Source of the DNA: a virus
Length of the DNA stretch: 64,000 nucleotides
Virus record (IMG/VR): IMGVR_UViG_3300029113_000198
Reading direction: 5' to 3' (one strand)
Shown: one piece after another, positions 8,507 through 33,417 of the stretch
Position numbering within the stretch: the stretch's first letter is position 1
Layout of the letters: each line of letters begins with the position of its first letter
Program-made: the position numbers and the translations under genes
The notes under the pieces: model-generated
Databases searched by the model: none
Seen by the model: the letters and a program-made list of their open reading frames with translations, nothing else
Told to the model about the DNA's origin: nothing

Positions 8507-8535
8507 TTGACTTATATGGTTGTATCCTGTATAAT
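8507..8535 (+). promoter_or_regulatory. Consensus sigma-A type promoter TTGACT-17-TGTATAAT driving the mazF-like gene; contains inverted copy of the conserved phage motif
   Basis: TTGACT 8507-8512, 17-bp spacer, TATAAT 8530-8535 preceded by TG; motif GTATCCTGTATAATATAGCTAT at 8522-8543. Confidence 0.7.
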
Positions 8536-8578
8536 ATAGCTATGGAACGGAGCTACACTATTATAGAGGAGAAAGATT

Positions 8579-8998
8579 ATGGACAACAATATTGACCCAA
8601 AGGTCGGAGAGGTTTGGTTGGTCGATTTGTCAAATGCGACAGGTCATCAGCAGCGCGGTATTCGACCGTTCGTTGTGACGAGCAACAATAAGCGCAACTT
8701 CTTTAGCCCCACAATCAAAGGGAATCCATTGTCTTCCAGAATATACAAGCGTTCTCCGGTTCATGTTCTACTTTCAAAGGAAGACTGTAATTTCTTAGAG
8801 GTTGACAGTATCGTTCTTTGTGAAGAGACTGACACGCTTAACAAAGGACAGTTCATCAAAAAACTTGGTGTCTTGTCGGAACGTCAGATGAATATGATTG
8901 CAATGGCAAGATGTAAGGATGAACCGTTTTTGCTCGCAGCATTCCTGAGCGGCGTACAACATACTATGGAATTTCAGAATTTTGCCGCATTTGCTTGA
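8579..8998 (+). CDS. mazF: MazF/PemK/EndoA-family endoribonuclease toxin
   Basis: VGEVWLVDLSNATGHQQRGIRPFVVTSNNKRNFFSPTI aligns with B. subtilis EndoA ([29 protein letters not shown]...RFSPT); downstream HV..L and QMNMI blocks also conserved. Confidence 0.8.
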   Translation: MDNNIDPKVGEVWLVDLSNATGHQQRGIRPFVVTSNNKRNFFSPTIKGNPLSSRIYKRSPVHVLLSKEDCNFLEVDSIVLCEETDTLNKGQFIKKLGVLSERQMNMIAMARCKDEPFLLAAFLSGVQHTMEFQNFAAFA

Positions 8999-9051
8999 TT
9001 TTTTATAATGTTTAATGGTACACTACATATAATAAGAAGGAGTGTGCCACT

Positions 9052-9978
9052 ATGCTTACTGAAGAAAAAATCAACGCTTTTGCCGAAAGGTATTCTGATA
9101 AAAGCGGTAAGTTTGTTGTATCGACACTTAACAATGTTATGATCTATGAGGCCGAGTGTGGGTATGAGTTGTTTGATTTTACAAAAAATGATTTTGTAAA
9201 GATGTTTGCAAAATACAATTGGGTGAACTCAAGTCGTTCATTTAGAAATGTGAAATCAATAATCACTGGCTACATCAAAAGTGAAGATCGTACAAGTTTG
9301 TATGACTTGGCTGAATTTTCGGAAAATGACGTAAGTTCAGACGATATGTATGCAGACAAGTATTTTGCATCGGTTGATGAATTTGTTGACTTATTAAATA
9401 AATACGAAGAGCCATATCAGATTCGTATGAACGTGATTGCTGTATTATACTGGATTGGACTTACCGCTGGTGAAATTGTTAATCTAACAATCAATGATGT
9501 TGATTTTGAATCTCGTACTGTTCTCAATAGGACTGGTATTGATGCGAGGTTGATGGATATCATCAAGCAGTGTTATGAAATGAAACAATATGATGCTCCC
9601 AACATGGGAGGATACAGAACGTTTTATGTCATAAACGGTGATTACATCCTTCGCAAAACAGAGGACAGGACTGGAGCAGACAGTGACCCAAAGATATCTA
9701 CAAATACAATTCATACCTATTTTATGCGATTGAATGATATTCTCGAAAAAAGAGGTTGTTCTAAGATTTTGGACCAAAGACATTTAACAAGAAACAACGA
9801 GTATATCAAGGTTTATGACTATTGCAAAACTCATCCAGAATTTAATCTTGTAGAACTTAGCTTCGGAAATGGTAAAGATCCTCTTGCAGACATTATCGGA
9901 AGAAAGTGTAGCAAGGTAGCCTATATTAGCTTCCGGCAAGGATACAAGGGCTGGATTGAGTATTTCCATAAAAATTAA
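9052..9978 (+). CDS. Hypothetical protein with degenerate tyrosine-recombinase-like box (no catalytic Arg)
   Basis: IAVLYWIGLTAGEIVNLTINDVDFESRTV resembles the integrase Arg-box region but Arg is replaced by Thr; no clean HxxR/Y. 308 aa. Confidence 0.35.
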   Translation: MLTEEKINAFAERYSDKSGKFVVSTLNNVMIYEAECGYELFDFTKNDFVKMFAKYNWVNSSRSFRNVKSIITGYIKSEDRTSLYDLAEFSENDVSSDDMYADKYFASVDEFVDLLNKYEEPYQIRMNVIAVLYWIGLTAGEIVNLTINDVDFESRTVLNRTGIDARLMDIIKQCYEMKQYDAPNMGGYRTFYVINGDYILRKTEDRTGADSDPKISTNTIHTYFMRLNDILEKRGCSKILDQRHLTRNNEYIKVYDYCKTHPEFNLVELSFGNGKDPLADIIGRKCSKVAYISFRQGYKGWIEYFHKN

Positions 9979-9982
9979 AAAC

Positions 9983-10006
9983 AGGGGGCTTCGGCCCCTT
10001 GATTTT
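9983..10006 (+). terminator. Rho-independent terminator
   Basis: AGGGGGC-ttcg-GCCCCT hairpin followed by TGATTTT. Confidence 0.7.
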
Positions 10007-10013
10007 AACACGT

Positions 10014-10034
10014 TAGCTATATAATACAGGATAC
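10014..10034 (+). promoter_or_regulatory. Conserved phage motif copy b (TAGCTATATAATACAGGATAC)
   Basis: Directly after terminator and 30 bp upstream of the 10064 start; shares extended upstream context TTTTAAC(A)CGTTAGCTA with copy d. Confidence 0.6.
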
Positions 10035-10063
10035 AGAAAATAGTATTTGAATGGAGAATAACA

Positions 10064-12136
10064 ATGTCTGATTTCAAGAAATTTCGTGCACTGCTGCAGG
10101 ATCACTTCAATGAGATGGTGAAGGTCGAGAATCCACTGTTTATCACCGATGCAGACGAGGATGAATTGTACAATCTGTACCTCGATAGCTTTCCGGCTGG
10201 CACGAATGAGCTGTTCCGTAAGCGTCGTGAGTATGACTGTTCCTGCTGCCGCCGTTTTGTAAAGAATATCGGCAAGCTGGTGGCGTTTGATGCGGGTCAT
10301 AATCTGGTTTCTATTTGGGATTTCGATGCTAAGTCCGCTAAGTATCAGCCAGTTGTGGACGCTCTGGCTGCCTATGTGAAAAGTCGCGCCATTGCGAATC
10401 CGTATTTTGTTAGCCGCAATATGATCGGTTCTGGCAATATGTTCGGCACCGAGATGAACTACGAGTATGATGAAAACCACAAGGATGTGCATACTTGGGA
10501 TCATTTCGCAGTCAAGATTCCGCAACGTTTCATTACAAGTGGAGATGACGTGGCTACCAAGATGGCTCAATGGCGTGATTCCGCAAACGTGTTCAAGCGT
10601 TCTCTGGAAGAGTTGACTATGGAAGCTGTTGATACCGTTCTGGAACTAATTGTGCAGAACAGTCTGTATCGTGGTAAGGAGTTCGAAAGAGCCGTCAAGG
10701 TATTTAAGATTCACAAGATTGAATACAACAATACTCCGGCTGAGAATAAGGATGCTTATGTTTGGTTGGCTCCTGCGTGGGGCGATATGGGGCAGTTGCG
10801 TATCCGTAATACCGCTATCGGTACTCTGCTGGTGAATCTGAGTGAGGGCATGGATGTTGATGCAGCCGTTACTGCATTCGAAAAAGTTGTTGCTCCTGCA
10901 AATTATAAGCGCCCCAAGGCGATTTTCACCAAGAAGATGCTGGAAGATGCACAGAAAACTGTCACCGAGCTGGGTTACATGAACAGTCTGGGTCGCCGGT
11001 TTGCTACTCTGGACGATATCACCGCCAATAATATCCTGTTTTGTAATCGTGATGCTGCTCCTCGTATTGTTGGTGCTACAAATCCGTTTGAGGCAATGGC
11101 TAAGACTGTTGCGATTGATCCTAAGAAGTTTGGCCGCGCAGAAGAAATTGGCATCGATAAGTTTATCAAAGACGTGTTGCCGACTGCGACTGGGCTGGAG
11201 CTGTTCGTGGAGAATCGTTTCGAGAAGAATATGATGTCTCTGATTGCTCCGCAGGATAAGACTGCGCCGAGCATGTTCAAGTGGCCGAATGGTTTCAGCT
11301 GGGCATATACCGGTAATGTGACCGACAGTCAGATCCGCGAGAACGTCAAGAACGCTGGCGGTAAAGTTGATGGCGTGCTGCGTTTCTCTATTCAGTGGAA
11401 CGATAAGTCGAGCGAGTGGGATGAAAACGATGAGGATGCTCATTGCATTGAACCTGATAAGAATCATATCTATTATGGCGATAAGTGGAATCCTCGTACT
11501 GATGGCCGCCTAGATGTTGATATCCGTTGTCCTAATCAGGGTAAAGCTGCGGTCGAGAATATCACCTGGCCTGACATCAAAAAGATGAAGGAAGGCGAGT
11601 ACAGCTTCTATGTAAACTGCTACGCTAATCGTGGTGGTAAAACTGGTTTCCGTGCTGAAATCGAATTTGATGGCAACATCTACTCGTTTAACTATGATAA
11701 GCCGCTGCATCAGGGTCAGAATGTCGCCGTGGCAAAAGTCACGCTGAAGGATGGCAAATTCTCTATCAAGGAGTTGCTGCCCAGTTCTACTAGAACCCGT
11801 GAGATCTGGGGTGTAAATTCCAATCAGTTCGTGCCTGTGTCTGTGGTGATGTACTCTCCGAACTACTGGGATGAACAGACTGGTAATGGCAACCGTCACT
11901 ACTTCTTCATGCTCAAGGATTGTGTCAACCCTGAAAAGCCCAATGGTTTCTACAACGAATTTCTGAAGGTGGAACTGCTACAGCATAAGCGTGTGTTTGA
12001 GGCACTTGGTTCTCAGATGGCAGTTCAGTCGGTAGATGACCAGCTGTCCGGCGTTGGCTTCTCTGAGACGAAGCATGATTCCTTTATTGTCAAGGTTCAG
12101 GGCGCTACTGAGAGAGTTCTGAAAGTGGTTATCTAA
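10064..12136 (+). CDS. Large hypothetical phage protein (690 aa)
   Basis: Strong RBS, follows motif copy b. No confident family assignment; an internal KVDGVLR resembles ligase motif I but lacks the other ligase motifs. Confidence 0.5.
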   Translation: MSDFKKFRALLQDHFNEMVKVENPLFITDADEDELYNLYLDSFPAGTNELFRKRREYDCSCCRRFVKNIGKLVAFDAGHNLVSIWDFDAKSAKYQPVVDALAAYVKSRAIANPYFVSRNMIGSGNMFGTEMNYEYDENHKDVHTWDHFAVKIPQRFITSGDDVATKMAQWRDSANVFKRSLEELTMEAVDTVLELIVQNSLYRGKEFERAVKVFKIHKIEYNNTPAENKDAYVWLAPAWGDMGQLRIRNTAIGTLLVNLSEGMDVDAAVTAFEKVVAPANYKRPKAIFTKKMLEDAQKTVTELGYMNSLGRRFATLDDITANNILFCNRDAAPRIVGATNPFEAMAKTVAIDPKKFGRAEEIGIDKFIKDVLPTATGLELFVENRFEKNMMSLIAPQDKTAPSMFKWPNGFSWAYTGNVTDSQIRENVKNAGGKVDGVLRFSIQWNDKSSEWDENDEDAHCIEPDKNHIYYGDKWNPRTDGRLDVDIRCPNQGKAAVENITWPDIKKMKEGEYSFYVNCYANRGGKTGFRAEIEFDGNIYSFNYDKPLHQGQNVAVAKVTLKDGKFSIKELLPSSTRTREIWGVNSNQFVPVSVVMYSPNYWDEQTGNGNRHYFFMLKDCVNPEKPNGFYNEFLKVELLQHKRVFEALGSQMAVQSVDDQLSGVGFSETKHDSFIVKVQGATERVLKVVI

Positions 12137-12150
12137 AAGGAGAAATTATT

Positions 12151-12534
12151 ATGGAAAAGAATCTGTTTGAAATCGCAACTCGTAATCGTTACCGTTTTAC
12201 CTACAAGGGCGTCATGACTGTTGAGGATCTGTGGGATCTGAGTGTCGAGGCATTGGATGCGATTTTTAAGACTCTGAACCGTCAGAAGAAAACTGCAGAC
12301 GAAGATTCTTTGCTGGCTGTTAAGAGCGCCGAGGATACTGAACTGGCAAACAAGATCGAGCTGGTCAAGTACATCGTATCTGTCAAGCTGGCTGAATCTG
12401 AGGCTCGTGTGAATGCTGCCGAAAAGAAGGCGCAGCGCGATAAGATCATGAAGATTGTGGCAAAGAAGAAGGACAAGGAACTTGAAGATATGGATGTTGA
12501 CCAGCTGATGAAGAAGCTGGAAGAGTTGAGTTAA
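12151..12534 (+). CDS. Hypothetical charged/coiled-coil protein
   Basis: 127 aa, AGGAG RBS, KE-rich C-terminus. Confidence 0.4.
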   Translation: MEKNLFEIATRNRYRFTYKGVMTVEDLWDLSVEALDAIFKTLNRQKKTADEDSLLAVKSAEDTELANKIELVKYIVSVKLAESEARVNAAEKKAQRDKIMKIVAKKKDKELEDMDVDQLMKKLEELS

Positions 12535-12597
12535 AATAGACATTTTATCGTGATTTTCGTTAAAATAATTAACGAAGTATCGTGATATTTCTTCCTC

Positions 12598-12727
12598 CGA
12601 AAACGCCCTGCGTGGGGCTGACAGCCGGGAAAGACCGGCGATATATGCCAAGGTGCTGCAAATGGGAGACAGGGCGAGCCCAAACCTCGCTGTGGAAACA
12701 CATGCGGTTTCGAATACCGTCCTTGGC
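12598..12727 (+). ncRNA. Candidate structured RNA element (GC-rich, nested and pseudoknot-like helices) upstream of the HNH gene
   Basis: ~130 nt at ~58% GC inside a 40% GC phage. Mutually complementary segments: CGAAAACGC(12598-12606)/GCGGTTTCG(12704-12712), GCCGG-gaaaga-CCGGC (12624-12639), GCCAAGG(12647-53)/CCTTGGC(12721-27), GCGAG-cccaaac-CTCGC (12674-90). No plausible ORF. Confidence 0.3.
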
Positions 12728-12759
12728 ACCAGATAATTTTATGAAGAAAGGATGATTGC

Positions 12760-13443
12760 ATGGTTAATAGGGCAGAAGATCATATTGGTGATGTCTTTGA
12801 TTTGTTTGAGGTGATTGATGTTATTCGAGATGAAAATAATATTCCATCTTACAAATGTCGATGTAAAGAATGTGGATGGACAGGGCTAAAAAATATAGCT
12901 CAGGCGAGAGCGGTTAAAGTGTGTCGGCATAAACAATCGAGTGGCGATTATAGAAATTTTTCTACACGGTGGAAAAACAAAAGAATCGGACGAATCTTTC
13001 ATGGAATGAAAGCAAGATGCTATGATGTTGATGATAAAAACTATATAACGTATGGCATGAAAGGAATTTGTGTTTATCAAGAATGGTTGGATAATCCAAA
13101 GTCATTTGAAGAGTGGTCGTTGAAAAATGGATACAAAGATAGTTTGACAATCGATAGAATTGATTCGACAAAAGATTACTGTCCTGATAATTGCAGATGG
13201 ATATCATTGGAAGATAATTCAAAATATAAATCCACAACTCGAATGTTAGAAGTAGATGGTGAAATACATACGGGACGTGATTGGGCGGCAGAATTAGGGC
13301 TTGGAACAAACACGATAAATAAATATGTAAGAAGATACGGAGAAGATAATACAAAACAATTTATAAGAAGAGTATTAAAGGACCCGGATAAAGTGAATTC
13401 TCGACAAGGGAAACAAACTATCTATAATCTTTACATGAACTAA
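12760..13443 (+). CDS. HNH homing endonuclease (free-standing, phage type)
   Basis: GMKARCYDVDDKNYITYGMKGICVYQEWLDNPKSFEEWSLKNGYKDSLTIDRIDSTKDYCPDNCRWISLEDNS is the classic HNH_3 block; Cys-rich N-terminus. Confidence 0.8.
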   Translation: MVNRAEDHIGDVFDLFEVIDVIRDENNIPSYKCRCKECGWTGLKNIAQARAVKVCRHKQSSGDYRNFSTRWKNKRIGRIFHGMKARCYDVDDKNYITYGMKGICVYQEWLDNPKSFEEWSLKNGYKDSLTIDRIDSTKDYCPDNCRWISLEDNSKYKSTTRMLEVDGEIHTGRDWAAELGLGTNTINKYVRRYGEDNTKQFIRRVLKDPDKVNSRQGKQTIYNLYMN

Positions 13444-13450
13444 ATTGAAA

Positions 13451-13490
13451 TGGCCCAGTGTAAAAACTGAGTACATTGGGCCAAATATTT
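13451..13490 (+). terminator. Rho-independent terminator after HNH gene
   Basis: TGGCCCAGTGTA-aaaactgag-TACATTGGGCCA (12-bp stem, one G-U) followed by AATATTTAT. Confidence 0.65.
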
Positions 13491-13496
13491 ATATGA

Positions 13497-13580
13497 GCAC
13501 CCGTGGTGAAATTGGCAACCACGATGGACTTAAAATCCATTCCCGGTAACGGGTTGCGAGTCCGAGTCTCGCCGGGTGCA
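13497..13580 (+). tRNA. tRNA-Leu (anticodon UAA), type II
   Basis: Manual cloverleaf: acceptor GCACCCG/CGGGTGC, anticodon arm ATGGA-CTTAAAA-TCCAT, variable arm CCCG-GTAA-CGGG, T arm GCGAG-TCCGAGT-CTCGC, discriminator A. Confidence 0.7.
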
Positions 13581-13585
13581 TATTT

Positions 13586-13661
13586 CTGGGCGTAGCGAAG
13601 TTGGCATCGCACCTGTTTTGGGAACAGGGGACCGCAAGTTCAAATCTTGTCGCTCAGACCA
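13586..13661 (+). tRNA. tRNA-Pro (anticodon UGG) with encoded CCA
   Basis: Acceptor CTGGGCG/CGCTCAG (C1:G72 as in bacterial tRNA-Pro), D arm GCGA-AGTTGGCA-TCGC, anticodon arm CCTGT-TTTGGGA-ACAGG, T loop TTCAAAT, then A-CCA. Confidence 0.7.
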
Positions 13662-13664
13662 CTA

Positions 13665-13751
13665 CGAGGATTCGCCAAGTTGGTAAGGCAGCGGAATTTG
13701 ACTCCGCCAGCGCTGAACAAGCGGTCACAGGTTCGAGTCCTGTATCCTCGG
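13665..13751 (+). tRNA. Unusual type-II tRNA: Ser-like body (long variable arm, G discriminator) with anticodon UUG
   Basis: Acceptor CGAGGAT/ATCCTCG perfect; D stem GCC/GGC (3 bp); anticodon arm GCGGA-ATTTGAC-TCCGC; 19-nt variable arm CAGCGCTGAACAAGCGGTC; T arm ACAGG-TTCGAGT-CCTGT; discriminator G. Confidence 0.5.
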
Positions 13752-13758
13752 CTTATAT

Positions 13759-13843
13759 GCGGGTATGGTGTAACTGGCAGCCACGTCAGATTTAGGATCT
13801 GATGCCGAAAGGCGTGAGGGATCGTGCCCCTCTACCCGTACCA
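13759..13843 (+). tRNA. tRNA-Leu (anticodon UAG), type II, with encoded CCA
   Basis: Acceptor GCGGGTA/TACCCGT (G1-U72), anticodon arm TCAGA-TTTAGGA-TCTGA, variable arm GCC-gaaa-GGC, T arm GAGGG-ATCGTGC-CCCTC (atypical T loop), A-CCA. Confidence 0.55.
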
Positions 13844-13942
13844 CGGTCATAGAATGGTTGCGTACCGTTTGTTGATCTCCTTTACTATTATTCCCAGCTC
13901 GCCAGTGATGGTGCAGTAGTGCTTTGTAAGCTGGGTGATTGT

Positions 13943-14018
13943 GCAGCTATGGTGTTAGTGGTTAGCACATCTGCCTTCCAAGCAGAGAGGGCGGGTTCGA
14001 GTCCCGTTGGTTGCTCCA
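13943..14018 (+). tRNA. tRNA-Gly (anticodon UCC) with encoded CCA
   Basis: Acceptor GCAGCTA/TGGTTGC (two G-U pairs), anticodon arm TCTGC-CTTCCAA-GCAGA, T arm GCGGG-TTCGAGT-CCCGT, T-CCA. Confidence 0.6.
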
Positions 14019-14207
14019 ATCTCGTATGGGTAGGATTTTTAGCGGTCAAATCCGGCTGCGCCTGTGCGAGATACCACCCCGAAAGGGGCGAGATATAGGA
14101 AATGTGCATCACTGTTATTCCTTCCTCGTCTATATGATATAGATGCAATAGTGTTTTATAAGGAAGGTGCCCAGTTGAATAGTTGCAGCTGTTTAACTGG
14201 TTTTTAT

Positions 14208-14284
14208 GGGATAGTAGCTCAGTTGGTCAGAGCTGGCGACTCATAACCGCTTGGTCGCGAGTTCAAATCTTGCCTGTCCCACCA
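14208..14284 (+). tRNA. tRNA with CAU anticodon (Met, or Ile2/lysidine type), encoded CCA
   Basis: GGGATAGTAGCTCAGTTGGTCAGAGC...GGCGACTCATAACCGCTTGGTCGCGAGTTCAAATCTTGCCTGTCCCACCA; anticodon-to-T-arm segment closely resembles E. coli ileX (GGCGACTCATAATCGCTTGGTCGC). Confidence 0.7.
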
Positions 14285-14321
14285 ACCCGATAGGGTGAAT
14301 ACATAGAAGGAGTTTTGTAAA

Positions 14322-14993: not shown

Positions 14994-15079
14994 ATAATTC
15001 ATCTAAATCTTTTGTTTTATAGGCGAATTGATAATATGACGTTGATACGTCTATTATTTTTCGCTTATTTTCTGAGATT

Positions 15080-15100
15080 TAGCTATATAACACAGGATAC
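15080..15100 (+). promoter_or_regulatory. Conserved phage motif copy c (TAGCTATATAACACAGGATAC)
   Basis: Immediately upstream of AAAAGGAGG RBS and the GTG 15118 start of the methyltransferase gene. Confidence 0.6.
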
Positions 15101-15117
15101 GAAAAGGAGGTGGTTTG

Positions 15118-16573
15118 GTGAAACATTATGGAAGTATTTGCGAGATTGATGGTTCTAAGATTGAACCTGTCTCGTGTATCACTGGTGGTTCACCTTGTTA
15201 GCCAAGATCTTTCTATTGCCGGTAAGCGGGCAGGTTTGGCTGGAGAACGGTCTGGTCTATTTATGGAAATGATTCGTGTGATAAAAGAAATGAGGGATAC
15301 CACCAATGGAGAATATCCAAAATTTGCAATCTGGGAAAATGTTAGAGGAGCACTCTCCTCAAACAACGGAGAAGACTTCCGATGTGTCTTGGAAGAATTT
15401 GCACACATCGTCGAAGCAGACGCTACAATTCCTAAACCTTCGGAAAAAGGTGGAAAATGGTCTAAATCCGGCGCAATTTCCGGTAATGGATGGTCTTTGG
15501 CATGGAGACTCTTCGATGCTCAATACTGGGGAGTGCCCCAACGTCGTCAAAGAATCGCGCTTGTCATTGATTTTGGAGGACAACGTGCCGCAAAGATATT
15601 ATTTGAGCGCACGGGCGTGCCAGGGAATTCTGACGAGAGCATCCCGACGTGGCAAGGCGCTGCCAGAATTGCTGAAAAATGCATTGTTGGAAATGATCGA
15701 GTGGTGGGAGAAAAAAGCTTTTGTATCGTCGGAAACATGATTGACAGAGAAACCAACATGAATGGGACTGGTGTAAAAGAAGATACTGCTTTCACTATAA
15801 ACACTATTGACCGTAATGCTGTTGCCTACACTTTAAAGATTCGTTCGGGATGCGAAGGCTGTGGCAAAGGCGCACTGGTACAGATCGAGAAGAGCGCAAC
15901 GCTTTCTACATTGCAAGATCAAACGTTAATTTGCTTGGCAGACAACACCTCTTTACATAATTCAAAACAAAAGATTTCCCCGGTGGTGTTTGAGAGCCAT
16001 AGTCAAGATGCTCGATACACCCAGCAAGGTAATACAAGTCCGGCTTGTACGGCTCAATGGGGAACTGGTGGCAATAATATGCCGCTTGTTGCCGAAAAGA
16101 AAGCCTTTGCAATGCAACGCATTGGTGAATACAAGGAAAGTGAACAAGCTAGTACGATGAAATCTCGTGACTACAAGGATGCTACTGGCTTGATTGCAGA
16201 GAAGGAAACGAAGAATCTGCAATGGATTGTTCGTCGTCTGACCCCCGTTGAGTGTGAGCGGCTGCAGGGTTTTCCGAGCGGATGGACTGATATTGGCGAG
16301 TGGGTTGATGAGAATGGTAAAAAGCACAAACCAGCTGATTCTCCTCGTTACAAAGCACTCGGAAACTCGATTGCGTTGCCGCAGTGGCACTGGATTTTCC
16401 AGAAAATGAAGCCGTATATCGGTGAGAATCCTACGCTTGGCAGTCTTTTCGATGGAATCGGTGGCTTTCCGCTTGTCTTTGAAAGTACGTATGGTGATGG
16501 TACTGCTATCTGGGGATCTGAAATTGATAGCTTTTGCGTTGCGGTAACTAAGAAGCATTTTCCAGAAGACTAA
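15118..16573 (+). pseudogene. Cytosine-5 DNA methyltransferase, apparently circularly permuted (motifs III-X then I-II) and requiring a +1 frameshift at the PCQ motif (pseudogene or recoded)
   Basis: GTG 15118 (7 nt after AAAAGGAGG) reads VKHYGSICEIDGSKIEPVSCITGGSPC then hits TAG at 15199. The +1 frame continues QDLSIAGKRAGLAGERSGLF (IV), FAIWENVRG (VI), GVPQRRQRIALV (VIII), RRLTPVECERLQGFPSGWT / ALGNSIALP (IX-X), then MKPYIGENPTLGSLFDGIGGFPLVFE (I) and AIWGSEIDSFCVAVTKKHFPED (II) before the stop. Confidence 0.55.
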
Positions 16574-18590: not shown

Positions 18591-18611
18591 TAGCTAAGTA
18601 ATACAGGATAT
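18591..18611 (+). promoter_or_regulatory. Conserved phage motif copy d (TAGCTAAGTAATACAGGATAT)
   Basis: Upstream of 18648 start; shares context TTTTAACCGTTAGCTA with copy b. Confidence 0.55.
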
Positions 18612-20501: not shown

Positions 20502-21717
20502 ATGGATAATACAGTTCATGACGCTCAAAGATTGAAGGAGCTTCAGGCACTCCCTCTTGAGCGAAAGATTCAAATCACTCAAAATCGCATCCAGGAATGG
20601 TATATGCACTATGATGGTGGTGTGTACGTCAGCTTCTCCGGCGGTAAGGATTCTACTGTACTTGCTCATTTGACAAAGCAGCTGTTCCCAGATGTCCCGC
20701 TTGTGTTTAGTAATACAGGCTTGGAATACTCGTCAATCCAGAAATTTGCACGAAACGCAGATGCTGTTTTTGTTTATCCCAAGATGGGATTTAGTGATGT
20801 GGTCTCTACATATGGTTATCCTCTTATCTCTAAAGAAGTGGCTGAAGCGATTTACTACGCTAGACGAATCAGAAATAGCGGCGCAGCCACCATGAGAGAG
20901 AGAGAGAGTAAGAACAACTCTCAGGAAAAGACAAGAACTTCTGGGTTTAAGGACGAACTGTCTGGGAGGTGTCTTTAGCAACCCGTGGCTTTACGATGAA
21001 ACAGGAGTTTTTCAAGGAAACAGACGGACGATTCTACTTGGTAATGAACCGGGAGCTGAAATGAAGGCCGGAACAAAATCCATGTTCAATAAGGAAAAAT
21101 GGTTGCCAGCAGCACAAGAACTTCCGTTTGCAATTTCTCATTACTGCTGTTCAGTTATGAAAAAAGGTCCGATGAAGAAATATGCAAGGGCAACCAAGCG
21201 TAAACCTATTATTGGAACGTTGACTGATGAAAGTCGTGTTCGCAAGCAAGCTTGGATTCGACATGGGTGTAATGCTTTTGATAGCAAGTCTCCAACAAGT
21301 CAGCCTATGAGTTTTTGGACTGAGCAGAACGTGCTCACTTTCATCAAACAGTCAGAAATTCAAATTGCAGATGTCTATGGCGATATTGTTCCTACGAGTG
21401 ATAAGCCGGATGCGCCATTGTGTTGTACTGGGTGTGATCGTACCGGATGCACGTTTTGTGGATTTGGAGCTCACAACAAGAACGATAATAGATTCCTGAC
21501 ACTTGCCGAACTTGACCCAAAGAAGTACGAGTATAGTATGAACGGCGGTCAATGGGTAGACAATCCAAAATATGATGCTACTGCACCTGAGTATGACGGA
21601 GTTTGGAAGAACTGGAACCCGAAGAAAATTTGGGTGCCCAGCAAAGAAGGTCTTGGACTGAGAAAAGTTTTCGATATGTTCAATGAACTGTACCCAAACA
21701 ACAAAATTCAATATTAA
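20502..21717 (+). pseudogene. PAPS-reductase-family (PP-loop, DUF3440-type) protein split by a frameshift inside a (GA)n tract
   Basis: N-part (20502-20978) has the SFSGGKDSTV PP-loop. The next frame is open from 20896 and runs into the 21061-21717 ORF, which carries a Cys cluster CCTGCDRTGCTFCG. The two frames switch at GAGAGAGAGAGAGAG (20894-20908). Confidence 0.55.
20894..20908 (+). repeat. (GA)7.5 dinucleotide microsatellite inside coding sequence
   Basis: Direct reading: catGAGAGAGAGAGAGAGta. Confidence 0.9.
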
Positions 21718-26529: not shown

Positions 26530-26701
26530 ACAGTTTGAGGCTGACGTTAAAGAATTTATTGCAGAATGCCAGAGCCATCCGGTGCTTGATTTGTCAAAAG
26601 ATGATCCATGCGAAGGGTGTCGCTTTGAGGATTTTTGCGATAGATTCTATACGGGTGATGGTAGCACATGGCATTGGCGAGTTTATGAGAGGGGTGAATG
26701 A
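26510..26701 (+). CDS. Small Cys-containing protein (paralog 2)
   Basis: EFIAECQ...CEGCRFEDFCDR; tandem paralog. Confidence 0.35.
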   Translation: MTMLTPEQFEADVKEFIAECQSHPVLDLSKDDPCEGCRFEDFCDRFYTGDGSTWHWRVYERGE

Positions 26702-27463: not shown

Positions 27464-27465
27464 GA

Positions 27466-30400: not shown

Positions 30401-30681
30401 CTGAAATCGAAGAAGGTGATTCTTGTGTACTGGTTGGTATTATCGCAAAGATTCAGAAGAAGAAAACGAAGACTGGTATGCAGTTTGCATTTGTAAATCT
30501 GTATTCCGGCGATGGTATCATTGAGCTGACCGTATGGCCGAGAATCTTGTCAGATTATCAGGATTTGATTGTAAAGGGAAGTCAGGTAGCTGTGCTTGGA
30601 AAGAAGGAAGATGAGTCGCACGTTATTGCAAATGATTTCAAACCTTACAAGAAGTGGCTGCATGATAGAGAGATAAAGTAA
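27466..30681 (+). CDS. dnaE: DNA polymerase III alpha subunit (DnaE-type) with N-terminal PHP domain
   Basis: HTHSNYSLLDGYSSPEE (PHP), GRGSAAGSLVCYLIGITQLD, NIYQEQSMKL, OB-fold C-terminus. 1071 aa. Confidence 0.85.
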   Translation: MSSSLHTHSNYSLLDGYSSPEENLKRASELGLKAVAITEHGEVTSWPYYSELKDKYPSVKLLYGIEAYECEDREVKDKNSKYWHLIIIAKNEAGRQAVNRLSTLGHLHGFYSRPRITKEDIAKEDTNNLIILSACLASRLSKTDDYDTCVKLVQEYKNLFPHYYLEVQAHANSEQAKYNQKIMRLANDTHTKVVVTNDVHAATKEDLYYQDYFLRIAHDTETAAEIYEGCYFMSRKEQHEVLDSQIGYDAAEWCINNTDEVADLCDYVDMPWHEPELPKIEIPPQYSNSAAYLKDLVKEGWKKRGIEKFDVEKQKIYHKRVDDELFVIEKKDFCDYFLILVDYINWCKKNDVIVGPGRGSAAGSLVCYLIGITQLDSIKYELDFGRFLTIERKDLPDVDVDVSDRAKVVEYLTQKYGEDRVVQVMNIVYTTPVTSIQDVGKVLGFPYAEIRKISEKFVQKTWKDCLEANPEVAENPRYKELLDIASHINGHPRGYGIHAGGVIVCRHPYYEYIGIRHGTDGEHVISVDKVMDEKIGLVKFDILGVASLVAIDEAKREDNIPDWEIDINNPEFENDKATYDLICSGKTDNLFQIESSGMKDLVAQLQPRSIEELSALIALYRPDAMPSIPTYVDCKYHPEHIHYFHPDMEPIFRSTYGVNIYQEQSMKLTKVFGGRNDAGADRMRKCLAKKKPEKVKEEVELLHDEIIANGYDKATAEYICNELSTKGGYGFNASHSQAYAVICLQTAYLKAHHPLAFFKAMLNLNKAKVGKVNKIMVDARSFDIQTLPPSINRSGMDFTVSNGKILFGLSAIGGIGDTLAETIIAERDRNGKFKGLDDFTNRVRATKAQIIALVKSGAIPTKNKRVFLEKYITSGLEQSEFKPVSTLPTKAVLLSKWGIDTEHYKVGKKVDKETVLRIYNEKRRVVHETDKLKKKEAYMAEQTTKYLQDEELWEFQTLQTFISDPNPFEKAFAYIKDFSEIEEGDSCVLVGIIAKIQKKKTKTGMQFAFVNLYSGDGIIELTVWPRILSDYQDLIVKGSQVAVLGKKEDESHVIANDFKPYKKWLHDREIK

Positions 30682-30911
30682 TGAATGGTGTTTTATATAC
30701 TATTGACGGAGAGGTTGTTTGTGAGCTTCCTATGTTTAAAATTGATTGGTACAAAGATAAAACTGTAATTAAGATACATTGTACGAATTGTTGCGTCGTT
30801 AGAAAAGTTCAGAAGTGGAAGTTTGACTGCGCAGAACAATGCGAGCGTACCACAAAATGGTTTTATTGCAGAGTGTGCGGAGGACTGACAGAATTTAGAT
30901 TAGGTGCATAA
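30681..30911 (+). CDS. Small Cys-rich protein
   Basis: CTNCC...CRVCG in 76 aa, start overlaps dnaE stop. Confidence 0.3.
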   Translation: MNGVLYTIDGEVVCELPMFKIDWYKDKTVIKIHCTNCCVVRKVQKWKFDCAEQCERTTKWFYCRVCGGLTEFRLGA

Positions 30912-30926
30912 TAAGAGGGTTGTAAA

Positions 30927-33257
30927 GTGGCAGATAAGAAATTTAATGAAAATATGATTCGTTGCTACATTAGGATAAAACGAGTCTTTTATCCGAAAGA
31001 TGGGAGGGAGGTGGAGCCCGGCGGCTTCGCCACTTTCTCTGCCGAGGTGGTAAAAGTCAAGCAGGGAAATCCTATCATGAGTCGATATAGTGACCTCCGA
31101 CTGAAGGGCAATGTCCCTAGTCTTGATATGAATAAAACTTATTCGTTCTGTGGTGAGTATGTTCATCATGAAAAGTTTGGTGATCAGTACAAAATCATCT
31201 ACATGAATGAGTTTCAAGAGATCACTGACCCGGAAGAACAAAAAAGCTTTCTCCGTTTTATTTTGACCGATCATCAGTTTGAGATGCTTTATGAAGCATT
31301 CGATAATCCGTATGAAGTTATCAAGAATGGTGACATCAAGGCTCTTTGTACTATTAGCGGTATTACGGAAGGTCGAGCACAAAAGATCATTGACTCTTTT
31401 GAACGCAACATTGATAACAGTGAAGCGTACACAAAACTGATTGAGTACGGTCTGACTCCCAGTGCTATTGAAAAGCTTGTTCGTCAGTATCACGGTGCAG
31501 ACATTCTGGTAAAAAAGATTGAGGAGAATCCTTACGTCCTGATTGATGATGTGTATGGTATCGGCTGGAAAAAAGCTGACGCTATTGCTTTGAATATGGG
31601 CTTAAAGCACAATTCGCAATTTAGAATCGAAGCTTACGTCATGCATTTTCTTGCTGCTCGTGCCGAAGAAGGTAACTCTATTATCCCGGCAAACCAGACA
31701 ATCAATAGCTGTATTAAGGAACTTGATTTGAACGAGGGTGATCAAGAAGTCATCAAAAGGGCACTTTTCCATTTACATGATGTCCGTGAAACGCTTTGGT
31801 GGAGTGATGACCGTCAGGAATTTGCTTTAACTAGAGTGTGGAATCTTGAAGATAAAATCGCAAAGGAAATCAAGCGACTGGCGGATGCACCTGTTGAGCC
31901 GATTGGTCGAAACATGGATGCTGCAATCAATGAAGCCGGGAATGCGCTTGGCATCGAGTATACTGAGGAGCAAAGAGATGCTATTAAAAAGGTATGCTCT
32001 AGCAACGTCTGTATCTTAACAGGCTACGGCGGAACTGGTAAAAGTACCGTTGTCGCTGGTGTTTTAAAGGTTCTTCGTGGCAAGTCTTTCGCTCAGACTG
32101 CACTTTCTGGTCGTGCCGCAGCTCGTATGCAGGAGATTACTGGTCAGGATGGAAAGACCATTCACCGTCTTCTTGGCTACGACATCGAGAATGGTGGTTT
32201 CATCCATAACAAGGACAATCCTCTTGAAGAAGACATTATCATTCTGGATGAGACCTCTATGGTTGGAGCTCAGTTATTCTATGACTTGATTCAGACAATC
32301 GAGACCGGCAAGCGATTCATCATGATTGGTGATGACGGCCAGCTTGAGAGTATTGGTATGTGTAACATCTTCAAGGATATGCTTGCATCTAAGGTTGTTC
32401 CTGTGGCTCGTTTGACTAAGATCCATCGTCAGGCAGCTAAGTCTGCAATTATCACGGAAAGCATTAAGGTTCGTAACGCTACGCAGTTGGTGCCTTATGG
32501 CTGGGCTGGTAGTGAGATTCGTGGTGAACTTCGTGATTTGGAGCTTGATATCTATAAAGACGCAAGTGAGTCATTCAACCACATCATCAATCAGTACCGT
32601 ACCTTATATAATAAGGTAGGGAATGATAGTGCGAAGATTCAGATTGTACTTCCACAGAAGCTGCGTGGCAGTATCTGCACATACGAAGTTAATAATGCTA
32701 TTCAGGAAATTGTGAATCCGAGTCGTGGTCAAGCAGAAGCAAAGGTTACAATCTATGGTGATGGCAAGGATAGGGTGTATACTCTGCGTGAGGGCGATCA
32801 GGTTATTATCAACAAGAATAACTATGAGCTTCACACATACAATCTCAAGACAAAGAAAAAGGAAGAGAAGTGTCCGGTGTTCAATGGAAACCGTGGCATT
32901 ATCCGAAAGATTGAGAGTAGTTTTATTCTGGTTGATTTTGACCAGTGGGGAACGATCTTCATTCCTCATTACTTTGGTGGGAATAACATCTGGGCAACAC
33001 TTGAACTTGCTTATGCTTTGAGTTGTCATAAACTGCAGGGCAGTGAGGCTCCGTATGTGATTGTTGGTATGGACAACTCTGCATACTTGATGCTGACGAG
33101 AGAATGGCTCTATACGGCCATCACTCGTGCCAAGAAGTATTGTGTGATTTGCGCCGAAACTCATGCTCTTGATCGGGCTGTAAAGACTTCGAGAGTGCCA
33201 TACAAGCGGACGTTCCTGAAGGAATTTTTACGGAAAGAATTTGCAGAAAAGCATTGA
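30927..33257 (+). CDS. RecD-like SF1 DNA helicase (AAA_30 / RecD2 type)
   Basis: Walker A LTGYGGTGKSTVV, Walker B IIILDETSMV, HKLQGSEAPYVIV, LYTAITRAKKY. 776 aa, GTG start. Confidence 0.75.
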   Translation: MADKKFNENMIRCYIRIKRVFYPKDGREVEPGGFATFSAEVVKVKQGNPIMSRYSDLRLKGNVPSLDMNKTYSFCGEYVHHEKFGDQYKIIYMNEFQEITDPEEQKSFLRFILTDHQFEMLYEAFDNPYEVIKNGDIKALCTISGITEGRAQKIIDSFERNIDNSEAYTKLIEYGLTPSAIEKLVRQYHGADILVKKIEENPYVLIDDVYGIGWKKADAIALNMGLKHNSQFRIEAYVMHFLAARAEEGNSIIPANQTINSCIKELDLNEGDQEVIKRALFHLHDVRETLWWSDDRQEFALTRVWNLEDKIAKEIKRLADAPVEPIGRNMDAAINEAGNALGIEYTEEQRDAIKKVCSSNVCILTGYGGTGKSTVVAGVLKVLRGKSFAQTALSGRAAARMQEITGQDGKTIHRLLGYDIENGGFIHNKDNPLEEDIIILDETSMVGAQLFYDLIQTIETGKRFIMIGDDGQLESIGMCNIFKDMLASKVVPVARLTKIHRQAAKSAIITESIKVRNATQLVPYGWAGSEIRGELRDLELDIYKDASESFNHIINQYRTLYNKVGNDSAKIQIVLPQKLRGSICTYEVNNAIQEIVNPSRGQAEAKVTIYGDGKDRVYTLREGDQVIINKNNYELHTYNLKTKKKEEKCPVFNGNRGIIRKIESSFILVDFDQWGTIFIPHYFGGNNIWATLELAYALSCHKLQGSEAPYVIVGMDNSAYLMLTREWLYTAITRAKKYCVICAETHALDRAVKTSRVPYKRTFLKEFLRKEFAEKH

Positions 33258-33282
33258 CAATTATGTGAGTATCCTGTATAAT
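33254..33282 (+). promoter_or_regulatory. Perfect consensus promoter TTGACA-17-TATAAT containing inverted motif copy e
   Basis: TTGACA 33254-59, TATAAT 33277-82, spacer 17 bp; GTATCCTGTATAATATAGTTAT 33269-33290. Confidence 0.7.
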
Positions 33283-33327
33283 ATAGTTATAAAAAGTCTC
33301 CATCCCGGAGGCTTAAAATTCTCTCTT

Positions 33328-33348
33328 TAACTATATAATACAGGATAC
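33328..33348 (+). promoter_or_regulatory. Conserved phage motif copy f (AACTATATAATACAGGATAC)
   Basis: Between promoter e and a hairpin+T-run at 33352-33392. Confidence 0.55.
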
Positions 33349-33351
33349 GGG

Positions 33352-33392
33352 AAAGAAATGGCTTGCTCGTAACGACAAGCCTTTCTTTATTA
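33352..33392 (+). terminator. Hairpin followed by T-run (possible terminator of a short transcript from promoter e)
   Basis: GAAAGAAATGGCTTG-ctcgtaacga-CAAGCCTTTCTTTATT. Confidence 0.45.
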
Positions 33393-33417
33393 GCTATAAC
33401 TATATAACACAGGATAC
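33391..33417 (+). promoter_or_regulatory. Conserved phage motif copy g (TAGCTATAACTATATAACACAGGATAC)
   Basis: Immediately upstream of AAGGAGG RBS and ligase start 33431. Confidence 0.55.

What the first reader, a model, noticed from the sequence alone, without database searches (positions are those of the whole stretch)
8517..33417. Conserved 21-bp phage motif TAGCTATATAA[T/C]ACAGGATAC present 7 times at gene starts, in both orientations
Seven copies of one ~21-bp motif sit at gene starts across 25 kb. Copies: a 8522-8543 (inverted), b 10014-10034, c 15080-15100, d 18591-18611, e 33269-33290 (inverted), f 33328-33348, g 33391-33417. Every copy keeps a TATAAT/TATAAC box readable on the + strand. 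In the two inverted copies (a, e) the motif forms the spacer plus -10 of textbook TTGACx-17-TATAAT promoters. In the five forward copies it sits 3-30 bp before an RBS with no recognisable -35. Copies b and d also share 9 further upstream bases (CGTTAGCTA). A GC-rich asymmetric site fused to a -10 box and repeated this often looks like a phage-specific regulatory site. It could be an operator for a phage repressor or activator, or a phage sigma/anti-sigma or RNAP-appropriation target, rather than host promoters alone. It marks the MazF-like, 690-aa, methyltransferase, ATPase and ligase genes.
Basis: seen in the sequence. Interest (0 to 1): 0.75.

Follow-up and report, generated by a model that had tools for sequence, protein, structure and literature searches.

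The report
Operator boxes of an integrase-like phage repressor
A 21-base sequence repeated seven times in a large prophage of the gut bacterium Faecalibacterium prausnitzii is most likely the docking site of the phage's own integrase-shaped master repressor, encoded right between two of the copies; this kind of lysogeny switch was so far described only in Bacillus SPbeta-like phages.

Summary
There are seven copies of TA[G/A]CTA-N6-ACAGGATAC, against 0.01 expected by chance, and it is the most repeated 13-mer in the phage part of the window.

The window holds the early and replication arm of a ~135-kb SPbeta-like prophage of Faecalibacterium prausnitzii.

The gene between copies a and b (9052-9978, 308 aa) is publicly annotated as an "integrase". 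It belongs to the MrpR/YopR/SroF family:
- The seven best Foldseek PDB hits are all these repressors.
- hhalign against the MrpR family gives 91.6% probability.
- It falls in the same PHROG as YopR.
- The first catalytic arginine is missing.

In SPbeta and phi3T, this repressor binds as a monomer to a long asymmetric box scattered over early promoters.

All 80 relatives that I found through the protein keep box a, and 79 keep box b.

The boxes fall into two classes:
- **Inverted boxes (a, e)** are embedded at a fixed register in consensus sigma-A promoters. The box-derived part of the spacer is invariant while the rest of the spacer drifts.
- **Forward boxes (b, c, d, f, g)** lack a -35 and are not constrained as a -10.

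Best reading: these are operators of the SroF-like repressor (confidence 0.6). No binding has been shown. What transcribes the genes behind the forward boxes is unresolved.

This is a new member of a known kind, of moderate interest.

The parts
8507..8535 (+). Sigma-A promoter P_a (TTGACT-17-TATAAT) of the mazF-like / repressor operon. Its -10 and the proximal 8 bp of its spacer are supplied by box a.
   Evidence: 11/12 match; across 35 unique orthologous sequences, the 9 spacer bases next to the -35 vary freely while GTATCCTGTATAATATAGCTA is invariant.
8522..8542 (-). Box a, type 1 (inverted): TAGCTATATTATACAGGATAC.
   Evidence: Present at the same place (about -530 to -600 from the repressor gene start, minus strand) in 80 of 80 relatives found through the protein.
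8579..8998 (+). PemK/MazF-like toxin gene, the first gene of the operon.
   Evidence: Pfam PF02452, E 8.5e-20. PHROG 1936.
9052..9978 (+). 308-aa MrpR/YopR/SroF-family integrase-fold protein, the proposed box-binding repressor.
   Evidence: Foldseek: the top 7 PDB hits are SroF, YopR and MrpR, using a model with pLDDT 90.4. hhalign against the MrpR family: 91.6% probability, E 8e-7, 248 columns. PHROG 5830, E 3.5e-11, which is also YopR's PHROG. Pfam MrpR_N_CB matched in 17 of 17 homologues. Arg-I is replaced by Thr138.
9975..10008 (+). Bidirectional hairpin terminator after the repressor gene.
   Evidence: -18.1 kcal/mol, z -5.4..
10014..10034 (+). Box b, type 2 (forward), 29 nt before the ATG of the 690-aa gene.
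   Evidence: Present in 79 of 80 relatives. It is the last conserved block before a mosaic junction, since different genes follow it in different relatives.
10064..12136 (+). 690-aa protein of unknown function (PHROG 1735). Distant relatives carry a 678-683-aa DUF8224 protein at the same relative position; I did not compare the two.
15080..15100 (+). Box c, type 2, directly before the RBS of the C5 DNA methyltransferase gene (15128-16573; an alternative GTG start lies at about 15118).
18591..18611 (+). Box d, type 2 and degenerate (TAGCTAAGTAATACAGGATAT). It lies 14 nt after the stop codon of the SSB-like gene and before the AAA_24 ATPase gene and the replication genes that follow it.
   Evidence: In orthologues the flanks are kept but the central hexamer is not -10-like.
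33254..33282 (+). Sigma-A promoter P_e, a perfect TTGACA-17-TATAAT. It overlaps the stop codon of the RecD2-like helicase gene.
   Evidence: 12/12.
33269..33289 (-). Box e, type 1 (inverted).
33294..33314 (+). Hairpin between boxes e and f.
   Evidence: -11.1 kcal/mol, z -4.3. Relatives have a different sequence here that also forms a hairpin.
33328..33348 (+). Box f, type 2. No gene follows it directly.
33352..33388 (+). Hairpin terminator with an A-tract and a U-tract, between boxes f and g.
   Evidence: -16.6 kcal/mol.
33397..33417 (+). Box g, type 2, 2 nt before the RBS of the ATP-dependent DNA ligase gene (33431-34762).

Best explanation
The 21-bp element TA[G/A]CTA-(AT-rich hexamer)-ACAGGATAC is the operator box of the prophage's master repressor. 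That repressor is the 308-aa integrase-fold protein encoded at 9052-9978, a homologue of MrpR/YopR/SroF of the Bacillus phages SPbeta and phi3T.

By analogy with SroF, one monomer clamps one long asymmetric box, so the box can work in either orientation.

At the inverted (type 1) boxes a and e, the box covers the spacer, the -10 and the start site of strong sigma-A promoters. A bound repressor would therefore exclude RNA polymerase. One of these promoters drives the repressor's own operon, which gives autoregulation.

At the forward (type 2) boxes b, c, d, f and g, the box sits just after terminators or stop codons and just before ribosome-binding sites of the 690-aa, methylase, ATPase and ligase genes. 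There it would block either a weak -35-independent promoter or transcription reading through.

Shown here:
- The boxes are non-random.
- They are under purifying selection.
- They flank the repressor gene in all relatives examined.
- The neighbouring protein belongs to the SroF/MrpR family.

Inferred, not shown: physical binding, repression, and the way type 2 boxes act.
For: 1. Seven copies against 0.01 expected by chance, and the top repeated word in the phage part of the window.

2. The 308-aa protein belongs to the MrpR/SroF family.
- The AF2 model has pLDDT 90.4.
- The seven best Foldseek PDB hits are all SroF, YopR or MrpR entries, at E 5.5e-8 to 2.7e-6. The first true recombinase appears only at 3.4e-4.
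- hhalign against an MrpR-family alignment gives 91.6% probability over 248 columns.
- Its only PHROG hit is 5830 (E 3.5e-11), which SPbeta YopR matches at 4e-117.
- Pfam MrpR_N_CB is matched in 17 of 17 homologues.
- Intermediate sequences such as P0132 hit both YopR and this protein.
- Catalytic Arg-I is replaced by an invariant Thr.
- A separate bona fide integrase lies at the prophage end, 52879-54036.

3. The precedent matches.
- MrpR gave ten ChAP-seq peaks, at promoters that carry the 15-bp SPBRE, including that of its own operon (PMC10516654).
- SroF binds as a monomer and reads 24 of 26 bp of an asymmetric box, with boxes at distant sites in the genome (bioRxiv 10.1101/2025.11.27.690993).
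- My scan of SPbeta shows that SPBRE is fused to a sigma-A -10, as here.

4. In 80 relatives ascertained through the protein rather than the motif, box a is present in 80 and box b in 79, flanking the gene. Of the 294 boxes in those loci, 277 keep ACAGGATAC exactly.

5. Footprint in P_a: the 9 spacer bases next to the -35 vary freely, but the box-derived 8 spacer bases, which sigma-A does not need, are invariant. The -35 sits at exactly the same register in 61 of 61 type 1 contexts, which belong to three different promoters.

6. The flanks stay conserved where the central hexamer is not -10-like (site d; TATGAC, TGAAAC, AGTAAT). The conserved unit is therefore a protein-sized box and not a -10 element.
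Against: - No binding or expression data exist. The link between the protein and the box rests on adjacency and analogy.
- No co-variation test was possible. Box specificity is constant across the 74-100%-identity family. The only distant relatives I could retrieve (23-24% identity; L208, L211) show no obvious repeated box within 10 kb on either side.
- The box sequence is unrelated to SPBRE or to the phi3T box. It also overlaps the -10 and +1, rather than the -35 and spacer.
- Type 2 boxes are all co-oriented with the downstream gene. Four of the five in the window follow hairpins (three are clear terminators), and they lack any -35. That pattern is also what a dedicated promoter class would look like.
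- No arbitrium genes and no SOS box were found in the window, so the surrounding circuit differs from that of SPbeta.
Confidence: 0.6

Rival explanations
1. The box is a phage-specific promoter, comparable to the 23-bp promoters of T7-type polymerases or to promoters for a phage sigma factor or appropriator. Forward (type 2) boxes would fire rightwards into the genes behind them. Inverted boxes would let the same machinery sit on early sigma-A promoters and switch them off, giving a temporal switch.
For: - The conserved block is contiguous, 21 bp long and AT-rich in the centre.
- All type 2 boxes are co-oriented with the downstream gene and lie 2-36 nt before its RBS.
- Four of the five in the window directly follow hairpins, three of them clear terminators.
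- They have no -35, scoring below the control.
- 76% of 231 unique type 2 contexts have no sigma-A-like promoter in the 80 nt upstream, so something must start transcription there.
Against: - No RNA polymerase or sigma gene was found among the window proteins I scanned.
- In the SPbeta model the phage polymerase YonO uses a single late promoter, not many early ones (PMC5467207).
- Two of the seven copies, and 61 unique contexts in relatives, point against the genes and would fire antisense.
- Site d and several orthologues lose the central hexamer but keep the flanks.
- About 80 kb of the phage is unseen, so the absence of a polymerase gene is not established.
Confidence: 0.2
2. The copies are ordinary host sigma-A promoters. 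They look alike only because a promoter cassette was duplicated and spread by recombination between phage modules, and no dedicated factor recognises the flanks.
For: - Boxes a and e are near-perfect sigma-A promoters.
- Boxes sit at mosaic junctions where the downstream gene differs between relatives.
- The 'type 1 promoter - hairpin - type 2 box' cassette recurs at three loci.
Against: - Sigma-A needs neither GTATCCTG in the spacer nor ACAGGATAC at +1, yet these are 94% invariant across 294 boxes while adjacent intergenic bases drift.
- Type 2 boxes have no -35, and half have C at the essential last -10 position.
- The same flanks are kept in both orientations.
Confidence: 0.07
3. The boxes are recombination sites for a tyrosine recombinase. 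Copies a and b, being inverted, would flank an invertible 1.5-kb immunity cassette that acts as a phase-variable switch.
For: - Copies a and b are inverted repeats that bracket the mazF-like and repressor genes.
- The neighbouring protein has a recombinase fold.
- A second tyrosine recombinase is encoded at 1942-2769.
Against: - No relative shows the inverted state. In all 80 loci the boxes downstream of the gene lie on the same side, with all but one on the + strand, and nothing lies upstream other than box a.
- Catalytic Arg-I is missing in the whole family.
- The box is not a pair of short arms around a 6-8-bp crossover spacer.
- MrpR showed no recombinase activity (PMC10516654).
Confidence: 0.03
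4. The element acts at the RNA level. It would lie in the 5' UTR of the type 2 genes as a processing or binding site, for example for the phage MazF-like endoribonuclease. The inverted pairs would form long hairpins in read-through transcripts.
For: - Type 2 boxes always lie in the sense orientation just before the RBS.
- The box contains UACA.
- Read-through RNA across e-f-g (33255-33400) folds at -50.2 kcal/mol, z -7.4.
- A MazF-like gene heads the operon.
Against: - In type 1 promoters most of the box lies upstream of the start site and would not be transcribed, yet it is invariant there.
- Most type 2 boxes have no upstream promoter within 80 nt.
- There is no Rfam match.
Confidence: 0.05

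Closest known systems
SPBRE / MrpR (YopR, SroF-SPbeta) of Bacillus phage SPbeta
   Same: - The repressor has a tyrosine-recombinase fold and lacks catalytic residues.
- It is encoded in an operon whose own promoter carries the box.
- About ten copies of one asymmetric box lie in promoter regions of early genes spread over tens of kb.
- The box is fused to a sigma-A -10.
- The genome is ~135 kb, with the same order of replication genes (AAA ATPase, DnaB-like helicase, primase, RecJ-like, Pol III alpha).
   Different: - The proteins are only ~15% identical in the structural alignment.
- The box sequence is unrelated: ACAAATACAAAAAATATGTAT in SPbeta against TAGCTATATAATACAGGATAC here.
- SPBRE spans the -35 to the -10 and was co-oriented with the promoter in every copy my scan found. 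Here the box spans the -10 and +1 and is used in both orientations.
- The host is a Clostridia gut anaerobe, not Bacillus.
- No arbitrium genes or SOS box were seen in the window.
SroF-phi3T bound to its 26-bp box (PDB 9rd5), with the antirepressor Sar
   Same: - It is the best structural match to the 308-aa protein (E 5.5e-8, TM 0.59).
- Monomeric binding with readout of 24 of 26 bp explains how a long non-palindromic box can work in either orientation.
- It has an AT-rich centre read partly through DNA shape.
   Different: - The box here has a 21-bp conserved core with G/C-containing ends, not A-tracts.
- No Sar-like, LexA-controlled antirepressor was identified in the window.
Stoperators of cluster A mycobacteriophages (L5 gp71); recalled from my own knowledge, not checked here
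   Same: - Many copies of one asymmetric site are scattered through the genome in short intergenic gaps.
- One copy overlaps the early promoter.
- The other copies have a fixed orientation relative to transcription and act as roadblocks to elongation.
- This resembles the type 1 / type 2 split seen here.
   Different: - The L5 repressor is a small helix-turn-helix protein and its site is 13 bp.
- There is no evidence here for a polar block of elongation.
Promoters of single-subunit phage RNA polymerases (T7, T3, SP6 type); recalled from my own knowledge
   Same: The block is contiguous and about 20 bp long, has an AT-rich stretch before a G-rich start region, and is repeated before gene clusters.
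   Different: - No polymerase gene was seen in the window.
- Two copies are anti-oriented and fused at a fixed register to sigma-A promoters.
- The SPbeta-type polymerase YonO uses a single late promoter.

Membership tests
SroF/MrpR (YopR) integrase-fold master repressor with a multi-copy operator box | The protein has the two-domain (CB + CAT) tyrosine-recombinase fold and is closer to SroF/MrpR than to true recombinases. | tested here: met
   The model has pLDDT 90.4. Foldseek PDB ranks 1-7 are 9rd5 (SroF-DNA), 8bpz/8bj6 (YopR), 8a0a (MrpR) and 9rgl (SroF-Sar), at E 5.5e-8 to 2.7e-6. XerA and lambda Int appear from 3.4e-4.
SroF/MrpR (YopR) integrase-fold master repressor with a multi-copy operator box | Sequence-profile membership (Pfam MrpR_N_CB PF22822 / PF22823, and the PHROG of YopR). 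| tested here: met
   PHROG 5830 at E 3.5e-11; YopR hits the same PHROG at 4e-117. hhalign against the MrpR family gives 91.6% probability, E 8e-7. PF22822 is hit in 17 of 17 homologues, but for the window protein below Pfam's gathering score (20.6 against 27 bits). PF22823 is precomputed for most homologues. Plain BLASTP against YopR is not significant (E 0.13), and a profile search of PDB sequences misses 8A0A.
SroF/MrpR (YopR) integrase-fold master repressor with a multi-copy operator box | Loss of the recombinase catalytic residues. | tested here: inconclusive
   Arg-I (GLRxxE in Tn1549 Int) is GLTAGE here, and Thr138 is invariant in 17 homologues. The other catalytic positions were not mapped structurally. 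An H244-x-x-R247 motif is present in the sequence.
SroF/MrpR (YopR) integrase-fold master repressor with a multi-copy operator box | One long asymmetric box in many copies at distant early promoters, including the promoter of the repressor's own operon. | tested here: met
   There are seven copies over 25 kb in the window and a further pair 17.7 kb upstream in a relative. Box a lies in the promoter of the repressor operon in 80 of 80 relatives.
SroF/MrpR (YopR) integrase-fold master repressor with a multi-copy operator box | The repressor physically binds the box and represses the adjacent promoters. | not testable with these tools
   This needs EMSA, ChIP-seq or reporter assays.
SPbeta-like arbitrium phage lysis-lysogeny circuit | An aimR-aimP-aimX arbitrium module and a LexA-controlled antirepressor (Sar) near the repressor operon. 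| tested here: not met
   None of the window ORFs I scanned hits the AimR PHROG 1728 (AimR itself hits it). There is no intergenic GAAC-N4-GTTC in the window. Only the window was tested; about 80 kb of the phage was not seen.
Sigma-A (sigma-70 type) promoter | A -35 TTGACA-like hexamer, a 16-18-bp spacer, and a -10 with A at position 2 and T at position 6. | tested here: met
   This holds for type 1 boxes only: a scores 11/12 and e 12/12. In all 61 type 1 contexts the opposite-strand hexamer keeps A2 and T6.
Sigma-A (sigma-70 type) promoter | The same features, applied to type 2 (forward) boxes. | tested here: not met
   The best -35 score is 3 or less in 113 of 114 contexts, lower than the control. 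The last hexamer base is T in 47% and C in 48%. There is no TG extension.
Promoter of a phage-encoded RNA polymerase or sigma factor | The phage encodes the polymerase or sigma factor, and all copies are co-oriented with the genes they drive. | tested here: not met
   No such gene was found among the window proteins I scanned. Two of the seven copies are anti-oriented. The unseen ~80 kb leaves the first point open.
Invertible DNA switch flanked by inverted repeats | Both orientations of the flanked segment occur in a population. | tested here: not met
   All 80 relatives show the same arrangement.

The most novel reading that the evidence does not exclude
The box is a two-way switch element. 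Read forwards, it is a -35-independent promoter used by host polymerase only together with a phage-made factor, or by a phage polymerase encoded in the unseen part of the genome. Read backwards, and fused at a fixed register to consensus sigma-A promoters, the same complex shuts those immediate-early promoters off. One 21-bp word would then encode both 'turn on delayed genes' and 'turn off early genes'. The SroF-like repressor could use it additionally or not at all.
Probability: 0.12. Interest if true: 0.7.

Novelty: new member of a known kind. Interest (0 to 1): 0.42.

Why it matters
Integrase-fold monomeric repressors with long scattered operator boxes (MrpR/SroF) have so far been characterised only in Bacillus SPbeta-like arbitrium phages.

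If the reading is right, the same repression logic runs a widespread family of ~135-kb prophages of Faecalibacterium prausnitzii, one of the most abundant bacteria of the human gut:
- More than a hundred IMG/VR contigs carry it.
- One repressor variant was seen on 445 contigs.

Three practical consequences follow:
1. It re-annotates a protein that public databases call an "integrase".
2. It defines the regulon and the early promoters of these phages.
3. It gives a concrete 21-bp handle for induction studies and for engineering gut prophages.

The split into consensus sigma-A promoters with an inverted box and -35-less forward boxes is a testable hint of a temporal layer that has not been described for SPbeta.

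Tried and rejected
1. **Direct sequence link to MrpR.** BLASTP against YopR gave E 0.13. phmmer and a profile search against PDB sequences found only weak recombinase hits. Homology needed profile-profile, PHROG and fold comparison.

2. **First AF2 model.** The model built on the shallow 74-96%-identity alignment was unusable in the C-terminal half (pLDDT 59). It was replaced by a model built on distant homologues.

3. **Co-variation of box and repressor.**
- Within the close family, the box does not change.
- The search for related loci for the 36% and 26% relatives P0094 and P0098 found nothing in IMG/VR.
- The protein scan of genome contigs found nothing.
- The two distant loci I could fetch (L208, L211) show no clear repeated word.
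- The test is uninformative. It is not negative.

4. **Minus-strand ORF 8158-8499 as a target of inverted box a.** Rejected. The co-located plus-strand ORF 8161-8487 has an ATG, an RBS and its own promoter; neither ORF has a PHROG hit.

5. **Type 2 boxes as downstream operators of adjacent sigma-A promoters.** This holds for only 24% of unique contexts.

6. **Invertible-switch idea.** Rejected; no inverted state in 80 relatives.

7. **Known RNA families in the e-f-g region.** None found.

8. **SOS box in the window.** None in intergenic DNA.

9. **GenBank phages.** There is no tblastn match to the repressor-like protein, and only short megablast hits to the region.
Full report
**Observation**

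- 8522-8542 (-)
- 10014-10034 (+)
- 15080-15100 (+)
- 18591-18611 (+)
- 33269-33289 (-)
- 33328-33348 (+)
- 33397-33417 (+)

Dinucleotide shuffles give a mean of 0.01 matches. An unbiased enumeration of 13-mer families, with one mismatch allowed and both strands counted, ranks this word first in the 54-kb phage part of the window.

- Copy d has AGTAAT, not a TATAAT/TATAAC box.
- Copy f is followed by a terminator, not by a gene.
- Copies b and d share three extra bases, not nine.
- The motif is 33% G+C.

**Context**

Bases 1 to about 54,100 are the right-hand part of a large prophage.
- G+C is about 42% in the phage part and 50-58% after about 54 kb.
- A tyrosine integrase lies at 52879-54036.
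- Almost all genes are on the + strand.
- The product of 59609-61417 in the flanking DNA is identical to a Faecalibacterium prausnitzii protein.

The phage genes include:
- a MazF/PemK-like toxin, a C5 methylase, an AAA_24 ATPase and a DnaB-like helicase;
- a primase, a RecJ-like protein, Pol III alpha and a RecD2-like helicase;
- an ATP-dependent ligase, NrdD/NrdG, a dUTPase, thymidylate synthase and seven tRNA genes.

The replication gene order matches yorG-yorL of Bacillus phage SPbeta. More than a hundred IMG/VR contigs of 110-141 kb carry the motif. In those contigs the repressor-like gene sits 75-94 kb from one end. The window therefore shows only the last ~54 kb of a ~135-kb element. 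GenBank phages hold no detectable relative of the key protein.

**The neighbouring protein**

The 308-aa ORF at 9052-9978 lies between copies a and b. Public databases call it "integrase / tyrosine recombinase".

Plain sequence comparison with SPbeta YopR (MrpR) is not significant. The following evidence places it in that family:
- Its only PHROG hit is 5830 (E 3.5e-11), and YopR matches the same PHROG at 4e-117.
- All 17 homologues I aligned hit Pfam MrpR_N_CB, and most carry a precomputed PF22823 hit.
- hhalign of its family against an MrpR-family alignment gives 91.6% probability, E 8e-7, over 248 columns.
- Intermediate sequences from an exhaustive HMMER search hit both proteins.
- An AlphaFold model built on distant homologues (pLDDT 90.4) has as its seven best PDB matches phi3T SroF bound to DNA, YopR, MrpR and the SroF-Sar complex, at E 5.5e-8 to 2.7e-6. 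True recombinases (XerA, lambda Int, Cre, Tn1549 Int) start at E 3.4e-4.
- The first catalytic arginine is replaced by a threonine that is invariant in the family.

**What is known about that family**

MrpR/YopR/SroF is the master repressor of SPbeta-like phages.
- Ten ChAP-seq peaks fall in promoter regions that carry the "SPbeta repeated element", including that of the repressor's own operon, and the MEME motif derived from the peak sequences matches that element exactly (PMC10516654).
- The phi3T protein binds as a monomer that encircles the DNA and reads 24 of 26 bp of a non-palindromic box. Boxes are distributed over distant regions of the genome (bioRxiv 10.1101/2025.11.27.690993).
- My own scan of the SPbeta genome shows the element as ...TAGACAAATACAAAAAATATGTATATAAT..., that is, fused to a sigma-A promoter.

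A long, asymmetric, multi-copy box fused to a -10 is therefore what this family would lead one to expect.

**Comparative evidence**

I retrieved 80 relatives through the protein, not through the motif.
- Box a is present in 80, at about -530 to -600 from the gene start on the minus strand.
- Box b is present in 79, at about +960 on the plus strand.
- One or two further forward boxes lie within 10 kb downstream in most of them (61 of the 80 loci carry four boxes in all).
- None lie in the 10 kb upstream other than box a.
- Of the 294 boxes in those loci, 277 keep ACAGGATAC exactly and 259 keep TA[G/A]CTA. The central hexamer varies.

In the alignment of promoter P_a, the nine spacer bases next to the -35 vary freely. 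The eight spacer bases that belong to the box, which sigma-A does not need, are invariant.

At site b the box is the last conserved block before a mosaic junction, and different genes follow it in different relatives.

**Two classes of box**

In 184 unique contexts the boxes split cleanly.

Type 1:
- There are 61 true cases, belonging to three promoters: P_a, P_e, and a third that lies 17.7 kb upstream of the repressor gene and so outside the window.
- GTCAA lies exactly 10 nt beyond the GATAC end. The opposite strand therefore reads TTGACn-17-TATAAT, TATTAT or TATTCT.
- The box points against the promoter.
- The opposite-strand hexamer always keeps A2 and T6.
- P_e in the window is a 12/12 consensus match.

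Type 2:
- There is no -35; scores are below the control.
- The last hexamer base is T in 47% and C in 48%.
- Some copies have no -10-like hexamer at all (site d; TATGAC, TGAAAC).
- Every type 2 copy is co-oriented with the gene behind it and lies 2-36 nt before its RBS.
- Four of the five in the window follow hairpins, three of them clear terminators.
- Only 24% of 231 unique type 2 contexts have a sigma-A-like promoter within the 80 nt upstream.

**Interpretation**

[quoted passage not shown] The obvious candidate is the SroF-like protein encoded between copies a and b.

At type 1 sites, binding would occlude strong sigma-A promoters, including the repressor's own.

At type 2 sites, binding would cover either a weak -35-independent promoter or the entry to the next operon. 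I cannot say which. This is the main unresolved point.

**Rivals**

- *Dedicated phage promoter.* This would explain the type 2 anatomy. It does not explain the anti-oriented copies at a fixed register, or copies that keep the flanks after losing the central hexamer. No polymerase or sigma gene is in the window. SPbeta's own polymerase, YonO, uses a single late promoter.
- *Plain duplicated host promoters.* This does not explain selection on the flanks.
- *Invertible cassette between a and b.* No inverted state was seen in 80 relatives.
- *RNA-level element.* This does not explain conservation upstream of the start site in type 1 promoters. However, read-through RNA across e-f-g would fold very stably (-50.2 kcal/mol) and might add termination or processing.

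**Limits**

- Nothing here shows binding or repression.
- The co-variation test failed for lack of informative relatives.
- No arbitrium genes and no SOS box were found in the window, so the circuit around the repressor may differ from that of SPbeta.
- About 80 kb of the phage was not examined.

**Verdict**

This is a real cis-regulatory word under purifying selection. It is most probably the operator box of an SroF/MrpR-family integrase-fold repressor in a Faecalibacterium prophage. That makes it a new member of a known kind, with an unexplained second class of sites.

Noticed in passing
window 8579-8998 and 9052-9978; L208 8262-10990; L211 8241-10972: A PemK/MazF-like toxin gene sits directly upstream of the MrpR/SroF-like gene in the window. 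It does so again in relatives with only 23-24% identical repressors, where a ~420-aa gene lies between the two. In the Bacillus phages, the repressor operon and the arbitrium system act on the host's MazEF; here the toxin is phage-encoded. No antitoxin partner was identified.
   Followed up: partly
L208 about 7700-7760; L211 about 7690-7750: In the distant relatives, a consensus sigma-A promoter is followed by a perfect Gram-positive SOS box (AGAACATATGTTCT), about 2.3 kb upstream of the MrpR-like gene. This is a candidate LexA-controlled antirepressor locus like Sar. The window has no equivalent box in intergenic DNA.
   Followed up: partly
window 33254-33417: A 12/12 consensus promoter is followed within about 135 nt by a hairpin, a box, a strong terminator and another box before the ligase gene. 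Copy e, the hairpin and copy f form an ~80-nt palindrome. The same 'promoter - hairpin - box' cassette recurs at a third locus in relatives (contig 112321, 76156-76236). Its purpose is unknown; possibilities are a short RNA, an insulator or a processing site.
   Followed up: partly
window 20502-20978 and 21061-21717: Two adjacent ORFs match the N-terminal (profile 3-46) and C-terminal (profile 80-171) parts of the PAPS_reduct domain. The gene looks split, or interrupted by a frameshift or an insertion.
   Followed up: no
window 12647-14284: The phage carries seven tRNA genes (Leu x3, Pro, Gln, Gly, Met). An HNH endonuclease gene (12760-13443) is inserted between the first tRNA-Leu and the remaining cluster. 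A sigma-A-like promoter (13401-13428) lies just before the cluster.
   Followed up: no
window 9052-9978: Public records name this protein 'integrase' or 'tyrosine recombinase [Caudoviricetes sp.]'. Fold and profile evidence indicate a catalytically impaired SroF/MrpR-type repressor, so the annotation is probably wrong. The real integrase is at 52879-54036.
   Followed up: yes
window 8538-8575: Just downstream of box a, the 5' UTR reads AGCTACACTATTATAGAGGAGA. This resembles a degenerate forward box overlapping the RBS of the mazF-like gene, and it is conserved in relatives. It may be a vestigial or weak second box.
   Followed up: no
window 1942-2769 and 2775-3461: A second tyrosine recombinase (275 aa; PHROG 216 and PHROG 1) lies next to a DnaD-like helicase-loader gene, far from the prophage end. 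Its role is unknown.
   Followed up: no
window 54380-54487: An IMPDH RNA motif (Rfam RF02994, 117.5 bits) lies in host DNA immediately after the prophage end. A host tRNA-Leu is at 58360-58443.
   Followed up: no
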